Source of the DNA: Escherichia phage vB_EcoS_SA80RD
Sequence record: OL960575.1
Strand: one strand, 5' to 3'
DNA: 59,778 bases
Shown here: piece by piece, positions 10,070 to 50,776 of the stretch
Layout of the letters: each line of letters opens with the position of its first letter
Numbering within the stretch: the stretch's first letter is position 1
Notes under the pieces: generated by a model
Databases searched by the model: none
What the model saw: only the letters and a program-made list of their open reading frames with translations
What the model was told of the DNA's origin: nothing
Program-made: the position numbers and the translations under genes

Positions 10070-10467
10070 AAGCGCGCAGACAGTTAATTGATAAGAAGAT
10101 CCTCCAATGGGAACTAAATAGCAAAGTCCCCGGCGGGGGATCTTCTTTATTATCGCAACTGCAAAAGGTTGAGGAACAGTCTGGTAAGACGCCGCCTAAG
10201 CTTAAAGAATATCGGGAAAAGGAAATACCGATTTGCTTTGAATACCTGTCTACTTTATTTGATGACATTTACACGGGAGGGGATTTTAGTTATACAGAAT
10301 TGCACAGCTATCAGGCAACAATGGGCTTACATCTTCAACCGTACGAATGCGAAATACTGCGGCAGCTATGGCTTGAAAAGCGCGTGTCTGAAGCTGAACA
10401 AAATGCTAAACTCATGGAAAGTCAAATGCAAAATCAAAATAAAGGTAGAAGAAAAAGGAGAAGATAA
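9662..10467 (+). CDS. tail assembly chaperone -1 frameshift fusion product (GT-like)
   Basis: Slippery heptamer T_TTT_TTC at 10060-10066; the -1 frame is open for 133 codons from 10066 to a TAA at 10465-10467 that overlaps the tape measure ATG. Frame checked codon by codon. Confidence 0.5.
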
Positions 10468-13400
10468 TGGCCGAAACCGCTTCGCTAGTAATCAGAGTTG
10501 ACGCGAGAGGGATTAGTACCGCGGACTCTATGTTGCGGAACTTAGCGCGTACAGGTGACACAGCGGAGCGGTCTGCTCAACGTGTTACCTCCAGCTATAA
10601 AACATTGTCTAACACATCTAACGAACTTGCAACTGTCACAAGTCGTTTGGATGCTGCAATTGTAGGAATGATTAGCGTTGACACTATTAGCCGTGTTATA
10701 TCGCTATCGGACTCCTGGACTATCCTCACCAACAAACTTGAACTGGCTCGTACGGGTAATGAAACTGTTGCGGATGCGCAGCAACGCGTGTTTGATATTG
10801 CCCAGCGGTCACGTACAAGCTTGGAAGCAACTGCAACTCTATATTCCCGTCTCCAGCGTGCAATGAAGAATACTGGTATGACTGGTATGGAGCTTGGACG
10901 TATCACTGAAACAATCAACAAAGCGATGATTGTTTCCGGTGCAACGTCACATGAAGCAAGCGCTGCCCTTATTCAGTTTTCGCAAGCAATGGCGTCCGGT
11001 GTTCTGCGTGGGGACGAATTCCGATCCGTTGCAGAACAAGCGCCCCGCTTAACTCAAATCATGTCCGATGCGTTAGGTGTTACCATTGGACAATTGCGTG
11101 AAATGGCTTACAGCGGCAAGTTAACCGCCGATGTGGTTATCAAATCGTTGTCCGGTGCTGCGGATACAATTGATAAAGAATTTAGCCGCACTATGCCAAC
11201 GTTCAACCAGCAATGGACGATTGCAACAAACAACCTGACTAAATTTATGGGTGAGTCCCAAAAGACTCAAGGTGCGGTTGCTGCATTGGGACAGACGTTT
11301 GTTGCATTATCCGAAAACTTAGGAACGGTTGTAACGGTTGGTTCAGCTTTAGCCACAGTGATTACTGCCCGTATCATTACGGCAATGCTTGCTAAGACTA
11401 AAGCGTCTATAGCTGCTGCAAAAGCATCACAGATGGAAGCTGCACAAACGGCGGCAACTACTGCGGTGATGCAAAGCTCTATTGGCGTTACCGCGCAGAA
11501 AGCGGCTGCGGATCGTGCTGCTTCGCTTGCAGCGTTACAGGTTGCTCGCGGGTCATTAGCGGTTGCTAAGGGTACGGCAGCGGAAGCAGGTGCACGTCTT
11601 GCGCTTATTAACGCTACCCGTGCGCATTCGGCAGCAATTATGGCGGACGTACAAGCGCGGCAAGCGCTCAATGCTGCGCTTAATGCAACTGTACCAGCCG
11701 CAAGCCGGGCAGCTACAGCAATGAGCGTGCTGCGCGGTGCTATGGGGTTAATTGGCGGTCCGGTTGGTGTAGCAATGCTGGCAGCGGGTGCAATTTACTC
11801 CTATAAAGCGTCATTGGAAGCTGGTCGTGCGGAAAACAATCAGTTTGCGGATAGTGTTGATACTGTACGCGATAAACTGATGCAGATGACAGAAGCTCAG
11901 TTGGCAGCTAACGCAGTTAAAGCTCGCGCAATTCTCCCCGAACTTGAAGAGCAAATGAAGCGGGAGCAAACTGCTCTTAAATCTGCAACGGAAACGCAGA
12001 AGTTCTATGAAGCACAATTAAAACGTCGTGCTGCGTCCGGTCGTGATACAGCCAGTGCTGAAAAGAATTTACAAATTGCAACGGATAACGTCAAGCTTGC
12101 TGCGGAGCGTGCTGAAGAAGCTCAACGCCGTTACAACAATGTCTTAGAAATGACAAGCCCTGCTATCGAGAAGATAATTCCGTTAGCTCGTCAGCTTGCT
12201 GCGGATATGAAAGCAGTGCTTAATATCAAATCCGGTCCGCTTATTGACGAGAAAGTGCTTGATCGTTTTAAAGGTCAGTTAGGTGACGTTAACCGCGAAA
12301 TTGATGTTAACACTGTTAAAGGTGCGGGTAATGCTCGCCAGGCCGCAATCCTTAGTGGGCTGTATCAAACTCTGGGCAAAGATGCAGACACCTACGGAAG
12401 TCTAATTCGCAAAGTAGCTATGGGGCAGGATGTTAGCTCTGAAGCAACAAGCGAGTCCGCAAAAGAACTTGTTAAATATGCTCAAGAGCTAGCGGAAGCT
12501 TACGGCAAGAATTATGATCTCGAGGAAGCGGAGCGGAACCGAACTAAAGCGACAAAAGACGGTATTAAAGCAGAACAACAGAACGCCAAAGTTATTGACG
12601 ATTTACGGAACAAGCTTAACGAAGTAACTACAGGAGTTAAAGAAAACGCTAAAGCTAAAGCGCAAGCTGTGGCGCTTAATAAGCTCAATGCGTCTGCAAC
12701 GGCTGCGGAAAAAGCGGAAGTTGTTAGTCTTGCTGCTGCAATCTACGATGCAGAAGAAGCTCAAAAGAAACTGGACGAGCGTAAGAAGAATCGTAAGTTT
12801 GCTCAGGGTCTGTTAGATGAAGGTATGACAGACTATGAAAAAATCGCGTACGAGCAAAATACTAAGATTGCTGAGCTTACTGCTAAACAACGAGCAGATG
12901 ACCTAGCTTACTATCAACTTTATGAGGATGCCAAAACTCAAGTCCTGAAGAAAGCAAGCATGGAAAGGGAAAATCTGGATAAAGTTCTTATGAACCGAAT
13001 GATATCCTTTTCTCAGGAATCCTTGGGTATTATACTGTCAGGGCTGGAAGAAGGTGTTAGTAAACAGAACTTTATTTATAAGGCAATGTTTGCTGCACAG
13101 AAAGCAATGCAAATCCCGTCAATCCTTGCCAACACGGAGACAGCGGCATCAGCGGCGCTTGCGTGGGGTACACAGCAAGGCGGTGCTACAATGGGCGCAG
13201 CTATGGCTGGTATAGTGAAAGCTATGGGTTATGCGTCTGCTGCTACTGTGGGTGGCTTAGCAATCGCTGGTATGGCGCATGACGGTATTGATAATGTTCC
13301 GCGCGAAGGTACATGGTTATTGGATAAAGGTGAACGTGTACTTAATGCCCCGTCTAATGACAAGTTAAACCGCTTCCTGGATAGCCAAGCTTCACAACAA

Positions 13401-13583
13401 GGTGGCGTGAATATGTCTGGTGGTGTTAACATTGTCCAGTATATCACGGTGCAAGGGAATGGCGATGCTGCACTCACGCAAGCCATGCAGCAAGCGGCTC
13501 GTGATGGTGCGGAGCAGGGATATAATAAAGTTCTTACAGACTTTGCATCCCGAGGAACAATTCGTAGAACTGCAATGGGGTAA
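10467..13583 (+). CDS. tail tape measure protein
   Basis: 1038 aa, Ala/Gln-rich coiled-coil character, classic position after the chaperone. Confidence 0.85.
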   Translation: MAETASLVIRVDARGISTADSMLRNLARTGDTAERSAQRVTSSYKTLSNTSNELATVTSRLDAAIVGMISVDTISRVISLSDSWTILTNKLELARTGNETVADAQQRVFDIAQRSRTSLEATATLYSRLQRAMKNTGMTGMELGRITETINKAMIVSGATSHEASAALIQFSQAMASGVLRGDEFRSVAEQAPRLTQIMSDALGVTIGQLREMAYSGKLTADVVIKSLSGAADTIDKEFSRTMPTFNQQWTIATNNLTKFMGESQKTQGAVAALGQTFVALSENLGTVVTVGSALATVITARIITAMLAKTKASIAAAKASQMEAAQTAATTAVMQSSIGVTAQKAAADRAASLAALQVARGSLAVAKGTAAEAGARLALINATRAHSAAIMADVQARQALNAALNATVPAASRAATAMSVLRGAMGLIGGPVGVAMLAAGAIYSYKASLEAGRAENNQFADSVDTVRDKLMQMTEAQLAANAVKARAILPELEEQMKREQTALKSATETQKFYEAQLKRRAASGRDTASAEKNLQIATDNVKLAAERAEEAQRRYNNVLEMTSPAIEKIIPLARQLAADMKAVLNIKSGPLIDEKVLDRFKGQLGDVNREIDVNTVKGAGNARQAAILSGLYQTLGKDADTYGSLIRKVAMGQDVSSEATSESAKELVKYAQELAEAYGKNYDLEEAERNRTKATKDGIKAEQQNAKVIDDLRNKLNEVTTGVKENAKAKAQAVALNKLNASATAAEKAEVVSLAAAIYDAEEAQKKLDERKKNRKFAQGLLDEGMTDYEKIAYEQNTKIAELTAKQRADDLAYYQLYEDAKTQVLKKASMERENLDKVLMNRMISFSQESLGIILSGLEEGVSKQNFIYKAMFAAQKAMQIPSILANTETAASAALAWGTQQGGATMGAAMAGIVKAMGYASAATVGGLAIAGMAHDGIDNVPREGTWLLDKGERVLNAPSNDKLNRFLDSQASQQGGVNMSGGVNIVQYITVQGNGDAALTQAMQQAARDGAEQGYNKVLTDFASRGTIRRTAMG

Positions 13584-14755: not shown

Positions 14756-15164
14756 AATGCCAGGATGGCAGACACGTTTATTAACCACAGTAAAGGAGTT
14801 GGCATCTACTCCTTTTTCTTGGGGTGAAAACGATTGCTGTACGTTTGCCGCTAAATGTGTTGATGCACAATACAACACAAATATTTATAATGAGATAGCA
14901 GGTAAATATAGCACAGAGCTTGGAAGCAAGCGATTCTCAATTGAAAAAGTCGGAACCGCTTATCTTCCAACTTTGCTGGATGCTTACCTGAGTGAACGCG
15001 TGGATAAGAACTTTGCACAAAGAGGAGATGTGGTTACATTTGAGGGAGCATTGGGCTTAACTGCTGGCATATTATGGACGGGATATGTATGGGCTATGGG
15101 TCCGAACGGTGTGGAAACATTCCCGCTTAATAAGATCAAAATTACGGATATTTGGAGGGTCTAA
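14730..15164 (+). CDS. tail assembly protein (lambda K-like, NlpC/P60-type Cys motif)
   Basis: WGENDCCTFAAK cysteine motif; start uncertain (ATG 14730 with GGGGGAG upstream, or ATG 14748); overlaps end of previous gene. Confidence 0.45.
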   Translation: MRQDSRMSKMPGWQTRLLTTVKELASTPFSWGENDCCTFAAKCVDAQYNTNIYNEIAGKYSTELGSKRFSIEKVGTAYLPTLLDAYLSERVDKNFAQRGDVVTFEGALGLTAGILWTGYVWAMGPNGVETFPLNKIKITDIWRV

Positions 15165-17803
15165 TGCCACCAGCAATAATTGGAGCAGCAATAGCTTTAG
15201 GTGCTTCCGCTGCCGCTGCGGCGGGGTGGATTGCTACGGGCGTAGCTTTAGCTATTGGTATGGCTGCAACTGCGGCGGGTGCTCTTTTAACTAAGACACC
15301 TAATATGAACTTTAATGCTTATAAAGGTCAACAAGAGCGTAAACAGGTTTTACGAGCAGCCGCAGCGTCTCGAACAGTAGTGTATGGCACAACGGTCGCT
15401 TCCGGAGTTATGACGTTTGCCGAGGAGCAGCCTGGAGATCAGGACGAAGACGAACTCCTGCATATGGCTCTTGTTGTAGCTTCACATCCATTGGATGGAA
15501 TTGGTGATATTTGGCTTGGGGATGACCTTGTACAGACTTTCGAACAGTATGTCACTTGGGAATTCCATAACGACCGTCAGACTGTAGATCCATTCATGTT
15601 AAGCAATTGCCCTTCCTGGAAAGAGGATATGATCGGGAAAGGGATTGCATGGCTTCGTATTAGCTTTAAATTTAATGCGGAAAAATTCCCGTCTGGTTTG
15701 CCAAACATTAAGCTTCTTAAAAGAGGTCGCCGTGTATATGATCCTCGTTCTGGTTATACCATATTTAGCGATAATGCAGCGTTAGTAATACTTGATTACT
15801 TCCGCACGTATTTAAAGCGCAAAGATGAAGATATTAACTGGGACCAATTCAAAGAAGCGGCTAACATCTGTGATGAATACGTCAATAACGCTGATGGTTC
15901 TACAGAGCGCCGTTATAAAATCAACGGTGAATTTGAAGTAGATGAAGCCCCATCCAAAATTCTGGATGCTATGTTGCAAGCTTGTGGTGGCGAGCTAACG
16001 TATGTAGCTGGTAAACACGGTCTTCTGGTTGGCGCATATTACGGCCCGGCAACAATGACGTTGGACGAAAGTTGTATTGCTGGGGATATTAAAATTGTTC
16101 CAGAGACTTCTTATAAGGAGCGCACCAACACCATCACAGGGACATTTATTGATCCAAAGCAAAACTATGTTGAAGCGGACTTCCCCCCAGTTGTGGTTAA
16201 GGAATGGGTGGAAAAAGATGGCGGTGAAATAACTCAGGACATGGATTTTCGTTTTGTAACTAGTGAATATCAGGCACAACGTTTGTCTAATATTATTCTA
16301 CGTCGTAAACGTGTTGGACGCACAATTGAAATCCCTTGTAACATGAAGGGTTATAAATTCCGTCCAGGAATGTATGTAAAAGTTACCATCACGCAGATTG
16401 GCATGAAGAATGTTGAAATGCGCGTTACCAAATGGTCTTTTAACCCTAAAGGTGGTGTTAATCTTACCTTACGTCAAGATTTCCTGGAAATGTGGGACGA
16501 TGCAATTGGTAAACCTATGGACCGACCGGATCTTGTAGACTTGCCAAGTGGTGGTGTTGCTCAACCTCAAAATCTTCAATACCAGATATTGCAGATTAGT
16601 GATGTGGTACAGGGGGTATTATCCTGGACCAACATGGGGCAAGTTGCATATAACCGCGTAGCTGTGCGACAGGGAGGCGTTACTATTTGGACCGCACAAG
16701 TCCCTGGCCAAAGCGTTCGTGTCACTGGGTTGCTGCGTGGGGCGTATACTGCGCACGTTCAAGCTGTATCGCACAGTGGCGCAATATCACCGGAAGCTTA
16801 TTTGGAGTTTAATATTCAAGCTCCACCGCCACCTTCATCTGTTGAGATACAGAACGGTTATTTTTCTTTAACTCTTATACCAAAGATTGCAGAGCTCACT
16901 AGTGTTAGCACACAATTTGATTTCTGGACGTCTGGTGAAACAAAACTGCCGTCTACTAATACAGATGTTGTTGAGCGCGATGCGACCCGTGAAGGTATGG
17001 GAACTATATGGCAGAAAAATAACTTACTCAATGACCACACTTATTACTGGTATGTAAGAACTATCAATGCCTTTGGGTCGTCCGCGTTTGTGGAAGTTGA
17101 AGCTCGTGTATGGGCAGAAACTGCACAGATCATAGAAATTATGGATAAAGAGTTTCAAGAAACTGAAACTTTCAAAAACCTCATGGAGACTGTGCAAAAG
17201 GTTGAGGACGGTGTAACGGAATTGTCCAAAGTAGTTGAAGGACAAGCTACAAAAATTGAATCGGTTCAGAGTAGTGTGGGTGATGTTGTTGTTACCGTGC
17301 AAGAGCAATCACAAGCACTAGCAGATCTTAATGGCAAACTTTCCGCTCAATGGGGTCAAAAGGTTCAAATAGACAATAATGGCAACAAATACGTTGCAGG
17401 TATGCAGTTAGGTATTGAAGGTAGCGGAGGACAATTCCAGTCTTACTTTATGGTGAGCGCTGATAACTTTGCTATTTATAATCCTGTAGCGGGAGCAGCA
17501 CAGCTTGCTTTTGCTATTAAAAACGGTCAAAGTTTCTTACAAGAAGCTTTTATTGAAAACGGATCGATTACCAACGCTAAGATTGGTAATGTTATCCAGT
17601 CCAATAACTGGAATGGTAACGATCAAGGTTGGGCAATTACAAAAGACGGTTATTGCGTATTTAATAACGTAACCGTCAGAGGGACAGTTGTTGCTAACGC
17701 TGGTCAATTTGGTTTCAATGGAAATGGAGGTATTACAATTGATAGTAACGGTATTCGTGTTCCGCTATCAGGTGGCGGTGTTGTCATAGTGGGACGCTGG
17801 TAA
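15164..17803 (+). CDS. central tail fibre / host specificity protein (lambda J-like)
   Basis: About 880 aa; C-terminal region (KYVAGMQLGIEGSG...FMVSADNFAIYNP) resembles lambda gpJ as recalled; ATG 15164 after GGAGGG. The ORF-track start at 15152 is TTG. Confidence 0.8.
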   Translation: MPPAIIGAAIALGASAAAAAGWIATGVALAIGMAATAAGALLTKTPNMNFNAYKGQQERKQVLRAAAASRTVVYGTTVASGVMTFAEEQPGDQDEDELLHMALVVASHPLDGIGDIWLGDDLVQTFEQYVTWEFHNDRQTVDPFMLSNCPSWKEDMIGKGIAWLRISFKFNAEKFPSGLPNIKLLKRGRRVYDPRSGYTIFSDNAALVILDYFRTYLKRKDEDINWDQFKEAANICDEYVNNADGSTERRYKINGEFEVDEAPSKILDAMLQACGGELTYVAGKHGLLVGAYYGPATMTLDESCIAGDIKIVPETSYKERTNTITGTFIDPKQNYVEADFPPVVVKEWVEKDGGEITQDMDFRFVTSEYQAQRLSNIILRRKRVGRTIEIPCNMKGYKFRPGMYVKVTITQIGMKNVEMRVTKWSFNPKGGVNLTLRQDFLEMWDDAIGKPMDRPDLVDLPSGGVAQPQNLQYQILQISDVVQGVLSWTNMGQVAYNRVAVRQGGVTIWTAQVPGQSVRVTGLLRGAYTAHVQAVSHSGAISPEAYLEFNIQAPPPPSSVEIQNGYFSLTLIPKIAELTSVSTQFDFWTSGETKLPSTNTDVVERDATREGMGTIWQKNNLLNDHTYYWYVRTINAFGSSAFVEVEARVWAETAQIIEIMDKEFQETETFKNLMETVQKVEDGVTELSKVVEGQATKIESVQSSVGDVVVTVQEQSQALADLNGKLSAQWGQKVQIDNNGNKYVAGMQLGIEGSGGQFQSYFMVSADNFAIYNPVAGAAQLAFAIKNGQSFLQEAFIENGSITNAKIGNVIQSNNWNGNDQGWAITKDGYCVFNNVTVRGTVVANAGQFGFNGNGGITIDSNGIRVPLSGGGVVIVGRW

Positions 17804-17813
17804 TGAAATATTT

Positions 17814-17840
17814 AAACGGGGCTCATGCCCCGTTTATTAA
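17814..17840. terminator. bidirectional terminator between J-like gene and convergent minus-strand gene
   Basis: AAACGGGGC-tcat-GCCCCGTTT hairpin between convergent stop codons. Confidence 0.6.
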
Positions 17841-18802
17841 TACATATTCGGTATAGCTATGAGTGGTGTTGAAATCACCACGTTACGACCGGGCATTTGG
17901 AATTGTTGTCGCGAGTAGTTGCCTACCACGCGGTTTCTTGCAGCACCTACCACATTATCTGCCATGCGAATCCCGTTCATGCGAATATGATTATAACCTC
18001 CGTTGTTCTCAATAAGCGTGCCTGTGTATGCAAGCTGTATTAAGCTGTCTCCAATATTTTGCCAACCCGCGCTAAGATCTACTGTTCCGTTGAATACAAA
18101 TGGCTTCTTAACTGTGGAGAACGTAACCTGCCCCGCGCTGTTCGTCATGGTAATACCATCACCAGGCTGTGGAGGAGTGTTATTAAATATTACTAATTCC
18201 ATCCCAACAGAAGCTGATACGTCATCAATTCCACCATATGCTGCATTGCGAACAATAATATTCGAACCATCAAAACCTACTGACACGTTAGGGTCGTTCC
18301 AGCGAGCAAACGGAACACCACCGACAGGTAACGACATACTGCCGTTAACCCATACGTACTGGGAATACTGACAAGTCATGAGAAAGGCCGCGTTGGATAT
18401 TGCTGTAAAGTCCGTGGAGTTAGCAACAAATAGACCCTCGTTTCGCGTTCCTACAGGTAGCAGTTCCATAATCACCCCTGCCCATTGCGGCAGCCCACTA
18501 TAGGCACCCAGTCCGTCCGCACCTCGCAACGTAACTCCACCGTCCCCGTTTCGGGTTACGGACGTCACATACATTGGATCCGGAATAACTAGCGTCTGAT
18601 CAAATACTTCCAGTACTTCAACTGGGTTAGTCATAATAACGACATGCTGCGATCCTGGCGTCAGAGGTGTATTGATGGTTAGTGTTTTGTCAGATTGACA
18701 TCGCTGATTGAAGTTAGCGCAAAAAGACGGGGCTCTCAATCCTGCTGTTATTTGCATTGCAGGTCTACCGTCATTGTAGTTTATATAAATACCCTCTGGC
18801 AT
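17837..18802 (-). CDS. hypothetical beta-rich protein encoded opposite to the tail genes
   Basis: About 320 aa; ATG at 18802 with GGAG RBS (ORF-track start upstream is less supported); G/N/T/V-rich, no signal peptide. Confidence 0.45.
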   Translation of the reverse strand: MPEGIYINYNDGRPAMQITAGLRAPSFCANFNQRCQSDKTLTINTPLTPGSQHVVIMTNPVEVLEVFDQTLVIPDPMYVTSVTRNGDGGVTLRGADGLGAYSGLPQWAGVIMELLPVGTRNEGLFVANSTDFTAISNAAFLMTCQYSQYVWVNGSMSLPVGGVPFARWNDPNVSVGFDGSNIIVRNAAYGGIDDVSASVGMELVIFNNTPPQPGDGITMTNSAGQVTFSTVKKPFVFNGTVDLSAGWQNIGDSLIQLAYTGTLIENNGGYNHIRMNGIRMADNVVGAARNRVVGNYSRQQFQMPGRNVVISTPLIAIPNMY

Positions 18803-18926
18803 AATTACTCCAACAATGTGGTTAAAGATGATAGACAATATTGTTTTATATTCTAATTTAATTTACCATATTTATATGCCATAGTGCATCCATTATTTGA
18901 TCAACTCTACGAAACAAGAGGTAAAA

Positions 18927-29881: not shown

Positions 29882-30418
29882 TTAAAGGCTGTAGTTAACG
29901 TGACATTTCGAAGTTTCTTCGATGGTGCATTCTACAAGTTGAACACCATGTTCGTCAAGCAGTTGCGGCCCAATTACGTTAACCATATATGCAGCTAAGT
30001 TTTCCGCAGTTGGGTTGAACGGTAAAGACACCAGCGCCTGGAAAAAGTGATCGCGGTCCTGCTCGCTCATAACTGGGTTAAAATCCCCGTCTTCGTCGCA
30101 GTAGACAAGATGTTTTAATGTGGAGATAAGTTTATCCTGTTCCCAGTGAAGGAACTTATGATCCCAGTTATCTTCCAGCCATTGACAGAGCGTAGTCTTA
30201 ACCACACTAAAGTCGATAACGCGCCCAACTTCGTCCAGTTTACCTTCAACGGAGAAACCTTTCGCGCCCGGGATGTAGTTTTCGCTTTCTACGCGCTTCG
30301 GTGCAACCTTAAAGTGAAACTTATAGTTGTGACCGTGGAGGTGGCGACATTTGCTTTCGTGACCTACAACACGATGTCCGGCGCAAATTTCATGGGAACG
30401 AATTACTGTATAGCTCAT
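29882..30418 (-). CDS. queD: 6-carboxy-5,6,7,8-tetrahydropterin synthase
   Basis: CxxxHGH zinc motif (CRHLHGHNYKF); AGAGGA RBS. Confidence 0.8.
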   Translation of the reverse strand: MSYTVIRSHEICAGHRVVGHESKCRHLHGHNYKFHFKVAPKRVESENYIPGAKGFSVEGKLDEVGRVIDFSVVKTTLCQWLEDNWDHKFLHWEQDKLISTLKHLVYCDEDGDFNPVMSEQDRDHFFQALVSLPFNPTAENLAAYMVNVIGPQLLDEHGVQLVECTIEETSKCHVNYSL

Positions 30419-50029: not shown

Positions 50030-50776
50030 TTACAGGATATGGGGGCAATAATATTTATCCATAACAAACTGAAAAACTTCTTCAGGTGTGCGGTCATTAC
50101 GAAGTTCAATCATATGATTGTCCAGCCATGCTAAACTCTCCTCAGCCTTATCTCTATTATTAAAGTGCAATAGCTTTGAAGGTGTATCGCCAGGAAGGGT
50201 AACTTCAATACAAAATGAACCTGTTTCTAAATGCGTTATGTCGCAAGTCGGCCAAACGCCGCGGTTTTCCCATATAGAAGGCGCATCCTCAAATCTGCAT
50301 GAGCTATACCATTTATTGCGAAGAGATGTGATCTCCTTACTTGTTAACGGGGCGCCCTTAACTCTTTCATGTTCCTCCAGCCAAGCTTTAAATTTTGGGT
50401 TAGGTTTGCGCCCCGGCTTCCCACCTTTCGCCTTTGCGCTTTCTTTAAACGCTTGCTCGTATGGGTCTGATCCTTTGCCCATGTGGTAATTGAATTTGCC
50501 CGTATAGCTGCGAAGCTCTTTGGCGTCCAGTTCATGTCCCAGCTTATCGCTCACCCATGCAAGGAAAGCTTCCCGCTCTGCATCCAGCTTTCCCGCTTTC
50601 GGTCTTACAGATTTTTTAACTGGCTGCTCCACATCCTCGTTGAAGTAATCTTCCACCATAGCAAGCGCCTGTGATTTGGTTGGTGCACCACGCAACCGTG
50701 AGCACGCTTGCACAACCCAAGCCGCGAAGCACATATCCTTAACCACAGTCTTTGAGGTAATAATTTCTTCACTCAT
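50030..50776 (-). CDS. hypothetical protein (first gene downstream of the iteron region)
   Basis: About 249 aa from ATG 50776 with GGTGG RBS. Confidence 0.45.
   Translation of the reverse strand: MSEEIITSKTVVKDMCFAAWVVQACSRLRGAPTKSQALAMVEDYFNEDVEQPVKKSVRPKAGKLDAEREAFLAWVSDKLGHELDAKELRSYTGKFNYHMGKGSDPYEQAFKESAKAKGGKPGRKPNPKFKAWLEEHERVKGAPLTSKEITSLRNKWYSSCRFEDAPSIWENRGVWPTCDITHLETGSFCIEVTLPGDTPSKLLHFNNRDKAEESLAWLDNHMIELRNDRTPEEVFQFVMDKYYCPHIL

What the first reader, a model, noticed from the sequence alone, without database searches (positions are those of the whole stretch)
17837..18802. Minus-strand gene embedded between the J-like tail tip gene and the tail fibre gene
All other genes from 12 to 23458 are on the plus strand, but this roughly 320-aa G/N/T/V-rich protein is encoded on the opposite strand and is bracketed by a bidirectional terminator (17814-17840). 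It has no signal peptide. Oppositely oriented genes in tail modules are often morons, such as superinfection exclusion or host-range factors.
Basis: seen in the sequence. Interest (0 to 1): 0.4.

Follow-up and report, generated by a model that had tools for sequence, protein, structure and literature searches.

The report
Phage tail-tip receptor-binding protein (LptD)
The backwards-facing gene is this phage's receptor-binding protein, a close relative of one already solved by cryo-EM bound to the bacterial LPS exporter LptD, so it is an ordinary, already understood tail gene and not an add-on.

Summary
Window 17837-18802 (-) is a real 321-aa gene and the only minus-strand gene in the plus-strand structural block 12-23458. 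It converges with the J-like tail-tip gene on a shared hairpin at 17813-17836. The "moron" reading does not hold. The protein is a full-length Pfam DUF6453 member (E 9e-132). It is 75% identical over all 321 residues to the Oekolampad (Bas18) RBP, solved by cryo-EM inserted into the LptDE translocon (PDB 9rpt/9rpw/9rqi). It is 94% identical to the ChristophMerian (Bas19) orthologue, and that phage is blocked by lptD loop deletions. An AF2 model (pLDDT 91) matches only 9rpt_C in the PDB. Homologues sit next to gpJ in 347 phage records. They are inverted in lytic small siphoviruses and co-directional with J in Citrobacter prophages. Within Queuovirinae, LptD-dependent phages carry this gene. LamB-dependent KurtStettler instead has an extended J plus a small lipoprotein in the same slot. 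GC content is normal, and there is no signal peptide or membrane segment. One difference from Oekolampad and Rtp: no Rtp45-type superinfection-exclusion lipoprotein is detectable anywhere in the window. Verdict: already known, low interest.

The parts
17837..18802 (-). Receptor-binding protein gene (321 aa, DUF6453), LptD-targeting type. Orthologue of Oekolampad bas18_0025 (RBPOeko), ChristophMerian bas19_0020 and Rtp44.
   Evidence: Pfam PF20051 E 9e-132. PDB 9rpt_C E 2e-162, gapless over residues 2-321. 75.4 % identity to Oekolampad and 93.8 % to Bas19. AF2 model pLDDT 91; the only PDB fold match is 9rpt_C, TM 0.89.
18728..18802 (-). Codons 1-25 of the RBP: the most conserved segment of the family. 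Inferred docking element for the J tip.
   Evidence: Residues 1-20 have the highest conservation of any 20-aa block (0.85), and 17 of the first 25 residues are invariant or nearly so in 38 sequences down to 36 % identity. Identity to FritzHoffmann is 96 % here against 63 % for the rest. pLDDT is lowest here at 72-75. The tail-proximal part is disordered in the cryo-EM map. Black et al. place the N-terminus at the conserved 'base'.
17813..17836 (.). GC-rich hairpin shared by the two convergent genes (J-like and RBP); a probable bidirectional intrinsic terminator.
   Evidence: dG -17.8 / -18.4 kcal/mol, z -4.8 on both strands. Called a terminator on the minus strand. Terminators are annotated at the same position in SA126VB and Rogue1.
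18803..18926 (.). AT-rich (26.6 % GC) divergent intergenic region. It holds the RBP ribosome-binding site (GGAG, 18808-18811, minus strand) and presumably the promoters for the RBP gene and the tail-fibre gene.
   Evidence: Sequence. One 9/12 sigma-70-like site lies on the minus strand at 18933-18904, but the number of such sites is not above the shuffle expectation. SA126VB annotates a plus-strand promoter here. The promoters are not established.
15164..17803 (+). J-like central tail-fibre / tail-tip protein (879 aa from the ATG at 15164). Inferred carrier of the RBP.
   Evidence: PF09327 Phage_Tail_Tip E 5.5e-43, Ig_J_second, phrog_31 'central tail fiber J'.
17666..17800 (+). Last ~45 residues of J (motif G.F.F.G...I...G..V.L..GG.V.VG.W). 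It is co-inherited with DUF6453 RBPs and is the inferred RBP docking site.
   Evidence: The motif is conserved in J of Queuovirinae, Dhillonvirus, Rogunavirus and a Citrobacter prophage, all of which carry DUF6453. J of Dru_SM1 is 97 % identical over 849 aa, diverges exactly here, and has no RBP gene.
18927..21107 (+). Lateral tail-fibre gene (context: primary, reversible adsorption). Not part of the RBP cassette.
   Evidence: PF08400 phage_tail_N and Peptidase_S74. Annotated 'lateral tail fiber protein' in BASEL relatives.

Best explanation
The gene encodes the phage's terminal receptor-binding protein. Shown by close homology: it is a two-beta-sandwich protein of the DUF6453 family whose orthologue from phage Oekolampad inserts its distal loops deep into the lumen of the LptD barrel. 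[quoted passage not shown] Inferred: the protein docks non-covalently through its conserved N-terminal/base region onto the last ~30-45 residues of the J-like central fibre. After the lateral fibres (18927-21107) make reversible contact with surface glycans, it binds LptD irreversibly and triggers DNA ejection. J's C-terminal tip and the RBP gene together form an exchangeable specificity cassette. The opposite orientation is a lineage trait of lytic T1-like, Dhillonvirus and Queuovirinae phages. In those lineages the cassette (often exclusion lipoprotein + RBP) has its own promoter and converges with J on a shared terminator. The orientation is not a sign of foreign cargo.
For: Sequence: PF20051 full length, E 9e-132. 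75.4 % identity over 321/321 aa to Oekolampad bas18_0025, which is PDB 9rpt_C/9rpw/9rqi, E 2e-162. Structure: AF2 pLDDT 91.1, pTM 0.90. Foldseek against the PDB gives a single significant hit, 9rpt_C 'open state of S. flexneri LptDE bound by the RBP of Oekolampad phage', E 7e-33, TMt 0.89. Biochemistry and genetics from the literature: RBPOeko forms a ~1,700 A^2 interface with LptDE, and LptD D352Y, Y671N and EL4/EL11 deletions abolish binding and infection (PMC12685063). Bas19, Bas20 and Bas25 (Queuovirinae) are blocked by lptD deletions, with complementation shown for Bas25 (PMC8594841). The window protein is 93.8 % identical to the Bas19 orthologue. Gln299, which H-bonds LptD Ser350 in the complex, and the surrounding loop RQQFQM are identical to Oekolampad. 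Presence/absence test run here within Queuovirinae: LptD phages Bas19, Bas20 and Bas25 carry the gene between J and the fibre gene. LamB phage KurtStettler has an extended J plus a 77-aa lipoprotein and no DUF6453 gene. Linkage to J: the gene is adjacent to gpJ in Dhillonvirus, Rogunavirus and Queuovirinae in the inverted orientation. In Citrobacter prophages it starts 3 nt after the J stop codon on the same strand. Docking inference: conserved RBP N-terminus and conserved J C-terminal motif, with the Dru_SM1 breakpoint exactly there. Not cargo-like: GC 46.6 % against 44.1 % for the window.
Against: Nothing has been measured for this particular phage: no adsorption data, virion proteomics or transcript mapping. 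Attachment of DUF6453 proteins to J is inferred and has not been visualised; the tail-proximal part is disordered in the cryo-EM map. Twenty-five per cent of residues differ from RBPOeko, and the least conserved blocks (61-120 and 241-320) probably include receptor-contact loops, so fine specificity could differ. In-vitro complex formation by RBPOeko was very slow and required a degraded LptD jellyroll. The usual companion, an Rtp45-type exclusion lipoprotein, is absent. The promoter of the minus-strand gene was not identified above chance.
Confidence: 0.92

Rival explanations
1. It is a moron: a non-structural accessory gene, such as a superinfection-exclusion or lysogenic-conversion-type factor, carried in the tail module under its own promoter and terminator (the reader's main reading, and the PHROG category for phrog_1265, 'moron... 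membrane protein').
For: Opposite orientation with its own flanking terminator and an AT-rich upstream region. PHROG 1265 is filed under 'moron, auxiliary metabolic gene and host takeover / membrane protein'. In other phages the same slot does contain exclusion lipoproteins.
Against: No signal peptide, lipobox or transmembrane segment. At 321 aa it is far larger than the 6-9 kDa Cor, Llp or Rtp45 proteins. No similarity to PF24052 exclusion lipoproteins. The orthologue binds the extracellular face of LptD as a soluble protein. The gene is conserved next to J in 347 phage records and lies inside the tail operon in prophages. GC content is typical of the genome. The PHROG label is an unverified text annotation.
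Confidence: 0.02
2. It is a receptor-binding protein of the DUF6453 fold that recognises a receptor other than LptD, or LptD plus a second protein, in this phage's natural host.
For: The family spans phages of Klebsiella, Salmonella, Citrobacter, Cronobacter, Vibrio and Dickeya at 23-56 % identity. Distal blocks are variable. Bas01 needs NupG as well as LptD, through a J domain. The closest relative, SA126VB, was isolated on E. coli O108:H2 and not on K-12.
Against: The protein is 94 % identical to the Bas19 orthologue, and Bas19 is LptD-dependent on K-12. More divergent alleles (Bas20 and Bas25 at 66-67 %, Oekolampad at 75 %, TheodorHerzl at 33 %) all still map to LptD. The 2026 screen found >30 % identity within this family to be fully predictive of LptD use. 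LptD is itself conserved among Enterobacteriaceae (established knowledge).
Confidence: 0.05
3. It is a tail-tip assembly or accessory protein (chaperone or adaptor) needed to build the J tip, and is not itself the receptor-contacting protein.
For: Tight co-inheritance with the J C-terminus. No direct virion-localisation data exist for this family in the sources read.
Against: RBPOeko on its own forms a specific, mutation-sensitive complex with LptDE, and phage-resistance mutations map to that interface.
Confidence: 0.01

Closest known systems
RBPOeko: receptor-binding protein of Escherichia phage Oekolampad (Bas18, Dhillonvirus), bas18_0025; PDB 9rpt, 9rpw, 9rqi (Dunbar et al., PNAS 2025, PMC12685063)
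   Same: Same length (321 aa), 75.4 % identity with no gaps, same Pfam family and same predicted fold (TM 0.89). Same position immediately after gpJ and same orientation opposite to J. The loop with Gln299 is identical.
   Different: Different phage lineage (Queuovirinae, ~60 kb, 7-deazaguanine-modified genomes, against a 45-kb Dhillonvirus). J is 879 aa against 1148 aa, and only the C-terminal tip is clearly similar. Oekolampad has an exclusion lipoprotein gene (bas18_0026) directly upstream of the RBP; the window has none.
bas19_0020 of ChristophMerian (Bas19), bas20_0020 of FritzHoffmann (Bas20), bas25_0021 of VogelGryff (Bas25): Queuovirinae shown genetically to need LptD (Maffei et al., PLoS Biol 2021, PMC8594841)
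   Same: Identical gene order J(+) / RBP(-) / lateral fibre(+) with no exclusion gene. Identity is 93.8 %, 67.3 % and 65.7 %.
   Different: These are allelic variants. Bas20 and Bas25 share the N-terminal 45 residues (82-96 %) but diverge in the body. Bas19 differs in the 298-303 loop (RRQVII against RQQFQM).
Rtp44 / Rtp45 of phage Rtp, OzMSK_038, Rogue1_0039/0040 (Drexlerviridae)
   Same: Same family and fold; 42.6 % identity to Rogue1_0039. Inverted relative to J, with a shared terminator.
   Different: Always paired with the Rtp45-type lipoprotein (PF24052), which binds the periplasmic face of LptD and blocks RBP binding. That partner is missing here.
pb5 (Oad) and Llp of phage T5
   Same: Works alike: a dedicated monomeric RBP at the end of the central fibre binds an outer-membrane barrel (FhuA), and the tail-proximal part is disordered in the complex (citing PMC9586334). 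The system includes a small exclusion lipoprotein.
   Different: No sequence or fold similarity was detected: no PDB sequence hit other than 9rpt, and no pb5 entry among the top 50 Foldseek rows shown. The receptor and the exclusion mechanism also differ (allostery against steric displacement).
Lambda-type J C-terminal receptor domain (LamB), as in KurtStettler (Bas22) and Dru_SM1
   Same: Occupies the same genomic position and fulfils the same role (terminal receptor specificity) in sister Queuovirinae. J is 97 % identical up to residue ~849.
   Different: There the receptor-binding function is fused to J as a ~130-aa extension. The minus-strand slot holds only a 77-aa lipoprotein, and there is no DUF6453 gene.

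Membership tests
LptD-targeting RBPs of small siphoviruses (Pfam PF20051 DUF6453; RBPOeko / Rtp44 family) | Full-length match to the DUF6453 profile above Pfam's gathering threshold | tested here: met
   439 bits against a cutoff of 25, E 9e-132, residues 4-297 on profile positions 1-290 of 291.
LptD-targeting RBPs of small siphoviruses (Pfam PF20051 DUF6453; RBPOeko / Rtp44 family) | More than 30 % identity over about 100 % of the length to an experimentally validated member (criterion used in bioRxiv 10.64898/2026.04.02.716166) | tested here: met
   75.4 % over 321/321 aa to RBPOeko and 93.8 % to Bas19. The criterion is quoted.
LptD-targeting RBPs of small siphoviruses (Pfam PF20051 DUF6453; RBPOeko / Rtp44 family) | All-beta, two-sandwich fold superposable on the solved RBP | tested here: met
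   AF2 pLDDT 91, all-beta secondary structure. Foldseek 9rpt_C E 6.8e-33, TMt 0.89, rmsd 2.6 A, and no other hit with E < 0.1.
LptD-targeting RBPs of small siphoviruses (Pfam PF20051 DUF6453; RBPOeko / Rtp44 family) | Encoded directly downstream of a gpJ homologue that ends in the Phage_Tail_Tip domain | tested here: met
   J 15164-17803 has PF09327 at residues 716-852. The RBP stop codon is 33 nt from the J stop codon. The same arrangement is seen in Bas18, Bas19, Bas20, Bas25, Rogue1 and Citrobacter prophages.
LptD-targeting RBPs of small siphoviruses (Pfam PF20051 DUF6453; RBPOeko / Rtp44 family) | Physical binding to LptD, and infection that depends on LptD surface loops | not testable with these tools
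   Known for relatives only: the cryo-EM complex and LptD point mutants for Oekolampad, and lptD deletion mutants for Bas19, Bas20 and Bas25.
LptD-targeting RBPs of small siphoviruses (Pfam PF20051 DUF6453; RBPOeko / Rtp44 family) | Companion Rtp45-type exclusion lipoprotein (PF24052) next to the RBP (a frequent accessory, not a defining feature) | tested here: not met
   tblastn with SE_Oeko and SE_Rogue1 against the window: best E 0.89, and that hit is the o-spanin signal peptide. A 4-sequence profile against the six-frame translation: best E 0.048, 9.6 bits, not a lipoprotein. Positive controls score 1e-38 to 1e-40. Also absent from the fetched locus stretches (7.8-8.5 kb around the RBP gene) of Bas19, Bas20 and SA126VB; their whole genomes were not searched.
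Superinfection-exclusion / moron proteins of tail modules (Cor, Llp, Rtp45; PF24052 Phage_lipoprotein) | Small secreted protein or lipoprotein with a signal peptide and lipobox | tested here: not met
   321 aa, no hydrophobic N-terminus, maximum hydropathy 1.15, no lipobox.
Superinfection-exclusion / moron proteins of tail modules (Cor, Llp, Rtp45; PF24052 Phage_lipoprotein) | Sequence membership in a known exclusion family | tested here: not met
   The only Pfam hit is DUF6453. The exclusion-protein profile gives no hit on this ORF.
Superinfection-exclusion / moron proteins of tail modules (Cor, Llp, Rtp45; PF24052 Phage_lipoprotein) | Sporadic distribution and atypical base composition, as expected of cargo | tested here: not met
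   GC 46.6 % against 44.1 % for the window, with GC3 inside the range of the other structural genes. The gene is always linked to J.
T5 pb5 (Oad) family | Sequence or fold homology to pb5 | tested here: not met
   phmmer against all PDB chains at E <= 1 returns only 9rpt_C. No pb5/FhuA entry appears among the top 50 Foldseek rows shown. The resemblance is functional only.

The most novel reading that the evidence does not exclude
In Queuovirinae the LptD-binding RBP operates without the Rtp45-type periplasmic exclusion lipoprotein that accompanies it in Dhillonvirus and Drexlerviridae. Either these phages encode a non-homologous, still unrecognised LptD-directed exclusion factor elsewhere, or they do without one and tolerate losing progeny to LptD on infected cells and debris. 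On this reading the inverted orientation of the lone RBP gene is a relic of an ancestral 'exclusion gene + RBP' cassette.
Probability: 0.3. Interest if true: 0.3.

Novelty: already known. Interest (0 to 1): 0.12.

Why it matters
For this window the result mostly corrects an annotation. A gene that databases call 'hypothetical', 'membrane protein' or 'moron' can be named as the terminal receptor-binding protein, and the phage's receptor can be predicted as the essential LPS exporter LptD. That prediction helps with host-range forecasts, phage-cocktail design and receptor engineering. It adds no new biology beyond Maffei 2021, Black 2025 and Dunbar 2025. Two by-products could be worth a follow-up. 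First, LptD-type Queuovirinae lack the known exclusion partner. Second, phiEco32-like podoviruses carry the same J-tip domain, DUF6453 protein and lipoprotein triad.

Tried and rejected
1. I searched for a cognate exclusion lipoprotein. tblastn with the Oekolampad and Rogue1 proteins found only the o-spanin signal peptide at 59491-59532. An HMM built from four exclusion homologues, run against the six-frame translation, gave a best E of 0.048 on a non-lipoprotein segment at 50619-50738. A lipobox regex over all ORFs of at least 35 aa returned two implausible antisense ORFs and missed the o-spanin because the pattern was strict. PHROG scans of small secreted or membrane ORFs at 23488-24731 returned only families of unknown function. 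Conclusion: no detectable homologue. A non-homologous factor cannot be excluded.

2. I looked for promoters for the minus-strand gene. The scan found 3 sigma-70-like sites against 4.2 expected by chance, so nothing can be claimed. Reading the AT-rich intergenic region by eye gave no convincing -35/-10 pair.

3. I tested for cargo-like base composition and found none.

4. I considered that the longer TTG-initiated ORF (333 aa, start at 18838) might be the real gene. I rejected it because of the Shine-Dalgarno before the ATG and the lengths and N-termini of homologues.

5. I considered homology to T5 pb5. There is no sequence or fold signal.

6. The literature search for 'DUF6453' returned a single, unrelated mention. 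The link to the LptD literature came through the BASEL relatives and the PDB sequence hit instead.

7. I did not use the search of protein representatives, the RNA tools, or the metagenome and genome collection scans. The identification was already unambiguous.
Full report
**1. What is in the sequence**

The window carries a contiguous plus-strand block of structural genes from 12 to 23458. It runs from the terminase, portal and head genes through the tape-measure gene (10467-13583) to a J-like tail-tip gene (15164-17803), a lateral tail-fibre gene (18927-21107) and several small ORFs.

One non-overlapping ORF interrupts the block on the minus strand, at 17837-18802. It is 321 codons long. Its ATG is preceded by GGAG with a 5-nt spacer.

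The product is rich in G, V, N and T. It has no signal peptide, lipobox or transmembrane segment.

The ORF converges with the J-like gene on a 10-bp GC-rich hairpin at 17813-17836. The hairpin folds at about -18 kcal/mol on either strand, z = -4.8.

Upstream of the ORF lies a 124-nt intergenic region of 26.6 % GC, shared with the divergent tail-fibre gene.

**2. What phage this is**

The locus is 98.6 % identical to Escherichia phage vB_EcoS_SA126VB. It is 84-94 % identical to other Queuovirinae (Seuratvirus and Nonagvirus), including the BASEL phages ChristophMerian (Bas19) and VogelGryff (Bas25).

**3. What the gene is**

- The protein matches Pfam DUF6453 end to end, E 9e-132.
- PHROGs puts it in phrog_1265, labelled 'membrane protein' in the 'moron' category. 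The sequence does not support that label.
- A sequence search of all PDB chains gives one hit, 9rpt_C (also 9rpw and 9rqi), E 2e-162, aligned without gaps over residues 2-321.
- That chain is the receptor-binding protein of phage Oekolampad (Bas18), gene bas18_0025. The window protein is 75.4 % identical to it.
- An AlphaFold2 model built from a 38-sequence alignment is confident, with pLDDT 91.1 and pTM 0.90, and is all-beta.
- Foldseek against the PDB returns 9rpt_C as the only significant match: E 7e-33, TM 0.89 normalised to the target. Its title is 'Cryo-EM structure of the open state of Shigella flexneri LptDE bound by the RBP of Oekolampad phage'.

- Maffei et al. 2021 (PMC8594841) defined 'bona fide RBP loci' directly downstream of gpJ in Drexlerviridae, Dhillonvirus, Nonagvirus and Seuratvirus. 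They showed that Bas01, 02, 14, 18, 19, 20 and 25 are blocked by small deletions in lptD, with complementation shown for VogelGryff.
- Black et al. 2025 (PMC13035648) modelled these proteins as two lectin-like beta-sandwiches. In their models a conserved 'base' contains the N-terminus and a variable 'tip' faces LptD.
- Dunbar et al. 2025 (PMC12685063) solved the LptDE-RBPOeko complex. The RBP inserts deeply into the barrel of an open LptD state, with an interface of about 1,700 A^2. Contacts are mainly with extracellular loops 3-5 and 11. LptD D352Y and Y671N abolish both binding and infection. The tail-proximal part of the RBP is disordered.
- The same paper showed that the small lipoprotein Rtp45, encoded next to the RBP in phage Rtp, binds the periplasmic side of LptD. 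It displaces loop 4 and so prevents RBP binding, which is superinfection exclusion.
- A 2026 preprint confirms that >30 % identity within this family predicts LptD use.

**5. Tests run here that bear on function**

(a) Presence or absence within Queuovirinae tracks the receptor.
- The LptD-dependent Bas19, Bas20 and Bas25 have the 321-aa minus-strand gene between J and the fibre gene. Their identities to the window protein are 93.8, 67.3 and 65.7 %.
- The LamB-dependent KurtStettler (Bas22) and its look-alike Dru_SM1 have a J extended by about 100 residues. They carry a 77-aa lipoprotein in the same minus-strand slot and no DUF6453 gene.

(b) The exchange boundary can be located.
- J of Dru_SM1 is 97 % identical to the window's J for 849 residues. 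It diverges exactly where the conserved terminal motif (FGFNGNGG...VPLSGGGVVIVGRW) begins.
- That motif recurs in J of Oekolampad, Rogue1 and a Citrobacter prophage, all of which carry DUF6453, even though the rest of J is only 31-37 % identical.

(c) The most conserved part of the RBP family is its first 20-25 residues.
- This block scores 0.85 for conservation. M1, G4, I7, N10, D11, I18, T19 and G21 are invariant.
- Bas20 keeps 96 % identity over the first 45 residues while the body falls to 63 %.
- DNA similarity to Bas20 also resumes inside the first 45 codons.

Together, (b) and (c) support the inference that the RBP N-terminus docks on the J C-terminal tip, and that 'J tip + RBP' is exchanged as one unit. 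They do not prove it.

(d) The distribution is broad. Homologues occur in 347 phage records, covering phages of Escherichia, Shigella, Klebsiella, Salmonella, Cronobacter and others. They also occur in enterobacterial chromosomes.

(e) In Citrobacter lambdoid prophages the gene starts 3 nt after the J stop codon, on the same strand, inside the tail operon. Linkage to J is therefore the constant feature. The inverted orientation is a trait of the lytic small siphoviruses.

(f) Base composition is unremarkable. GC is 46.6 % against 44.1 % for the window.

**6. Most likely mechanism**

- Shown by close homology: the protein is a soluble beta-sandwich RBP whose distal loops plug into the LptD barrel.
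- Inferred: it is carried on the tip of the J-like central fibre through its N-terminal/base region.
- Inferred: the lateral fibres encoded at 18927-21107 first bind surface glycans reversibly. Irreversible binding to LptD then commits the virion to DNA ejection.
- Residue Gln299, which hydrogen-bonds LptD Ser350 in the solved complex, and its loop RQQFQM are identical in the window protein.
- The reason for the inverted orientation is not established. A plausible account is that the cassette was originally 'exclusion lipoprotein + RBP' with its own promoter, as in Oekolampad and Rogue1/Rtp. The exclusion protein must be made before lysis.

**7. How it differs from the characterised members**

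No Rtp45/SEOeko-type lipoprotein (Pfam PF24052) is present at the locus or anywhere in the 59.8-kb window.
- tblastn gave a best E of 0.89, on the o-spanin signal peptide.
- Profile search gave a best E of 0.048, on a non-lipoprotein segment.
- Positive controls scored 1e-38 to 1e-40.

The fetched locus stretches of Bas19, Bas20 and SA126VB also lack it; their whole genomes were not searched. None of the 60 sampled records with an exclusion-protein homologue, out of 328, has a Queuovirinae-sized genome.

In Klebsiella phages the two genes lie about 10 kb apart, so adjacency is not obligatory. Here, however, no homologue exists at all. This is the only feature that is not already described, and I could not find it discussed in the papers read.

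**8. Rivals**

- Moron or exclusion protein: contradicted by every feature tested (see the membership table).
- Same fold, different receptor: unlikely given 94 % identity to a genetically LptD-dependent phage, and given that much more divergent alleles still use LptD.
- Assembly factor: contradicted by the direct, mutation-sensitive binding of the orthologue to LptDE.

**9. Verdict**

The gene belongs to an already characterised family with a solved receptor complex. Novelty: already known. Interest: low.

**10. Limits**

Nothing about this specific phage has been measured. Virion incorporation, docking to J, the promoter and the timing of the minus-strand transcript, and the bidirectional action of the hairpin are all inferences.

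Noticed in passing
whole window (searched 1-59778); locus 17804-18926: No homologue of the Rtp45 / SEOeko exclusion lipoprotein (PF24052) that accompanies the LptD-RBP in Dhillonvirus and Drexlerviridae. It is also absent from the fetched locus stretches (7.8-8.5 kb) of Bas19, Bas20 and SA126VB; their whole genomes were not searched. How LptD-type Queuovirinae avoid superinfection, or loss of progeny on debris, is open.
   Followed up: partly
L010 1689-3690 and L011 1474-1800 (Escherichia phage vB_EcoP_SU7, MZ342906, Gordonclarkvirinae): A phiEco32-like podovirus carries the same triad as LptD-targeting siphoviruses. SU7_17 is a 322-aa 'tail fiber' with the J-tip domain PF09327 (E 8e-26). The next gene, SU7_18, is a DUF6453 protein (E 4.5e-25; 24 % identity to the window protein). 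SU7_97 is a PF24052 lipoprotein elsewhere in the genome (E 3e-36). Exclusion-protein-like hits occur in many 74-78 kb phages. No paper in the searchable library links Kuravirus or Gordonclarkvirinae with LptD. These podoviruses may use LptD or a similar barrel as terminal receptor.
   Followed up: partly
L008 / L009 3825-9199 (Citrobacter prophage contigs): In temperate lambdoid prophages the DUF6453 gene starts 3 nt after the J stop codon on the same strand and is followed by a tail-fibre C-terminal-domain gene. The inversion seen in the window is therefore specific to lytic small siphoviruses.
   Followed up: partly
L002 1165-4378 (Dru_SM1) and L012 162-3388 (KurtStettler, Bas22); corresponds to window 17700-18926: Alternative allele of the same locus in sister Seuratviruses. 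J is 97 % identical up to residue ~849 and then has a different ~130-aa C-terminal extension. A 77-aa lipoprotein (MKRSIAILTLTFLLSACG...) occupies the minus-strand slot in place of the RBP. KurtStettler is LamB-dependent.
   Followed up: partly
window 17894-17911 (codons 298-303 of the RBP): The loop RQQFQM is identical to Oekolampad (75 % identical overall) but differs from the otherwise 94 %-identical Bas19 protein (RRQVII). It contains Gln299, which contacts LptD Ser350 in the cryo-EM complex. This suggests mosaic exchange of receptor-contact loops within the RBP gene.
   Followed up: no
L007 3772-4102 (Citrobacter phage HCF1, MN545971, flagged UNVERIFIED_ASMBLY): Only the first 34 codons of a DUF6453 gene (82 % identical to the window's) remain, abutting an extended 1238-aa J. 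An apparently disrupted exclusion-type lipoprotein (HCF1_45) lies upstream. This is either a decayed cassette or an assembly error.
   Followed up: no
window 17837-18802; database annotations of homologues: PHROG 1265 labels this family 'membrane protein' in the 'moron' category. RefSeq records of many relatives repeat 'membrane protein'. The protein has no membrane segment, so the label is misleading.
   Followed up: yes
window 21150-21986 (+) and 23255-23458 (+): Downstream of the lateral fibre gene lie two odd ORFs. One is a 278-aa protein with a long Gly-rich N-terminal half and a C-terminus PTPPTPPTGCC (phrog_9288, unknown function). The other is a 67-aa Cys- and Pro-rich ORF (phrog_25697, unknown function). 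Both are conserved in phages, with no assigned role.
   Followed up: no
window 59133-59606 (+) and 59467-59769 (+): An overlapping spanin pair at the right end of the window. The second ORF is an o-spanin-like lipoprotein (…LMICAGCSTEIQPPPPQ…) that starts inside the first. It was the only, and spurious, tblastn hit for the exclusion lipoprotein query.
   Followed up: partly
phage records PP738758, NC_048044 (Klebsiella Webervirus-like phages): The DUF6453 homologue and the PF24052-type lipoprotein homologue lie about 10 kb apart in these genomes (for example 19622-20575 and 30181-30405). The RBP-exclusion pair is therefore not always a contiguous cassette.
   Followed up: no
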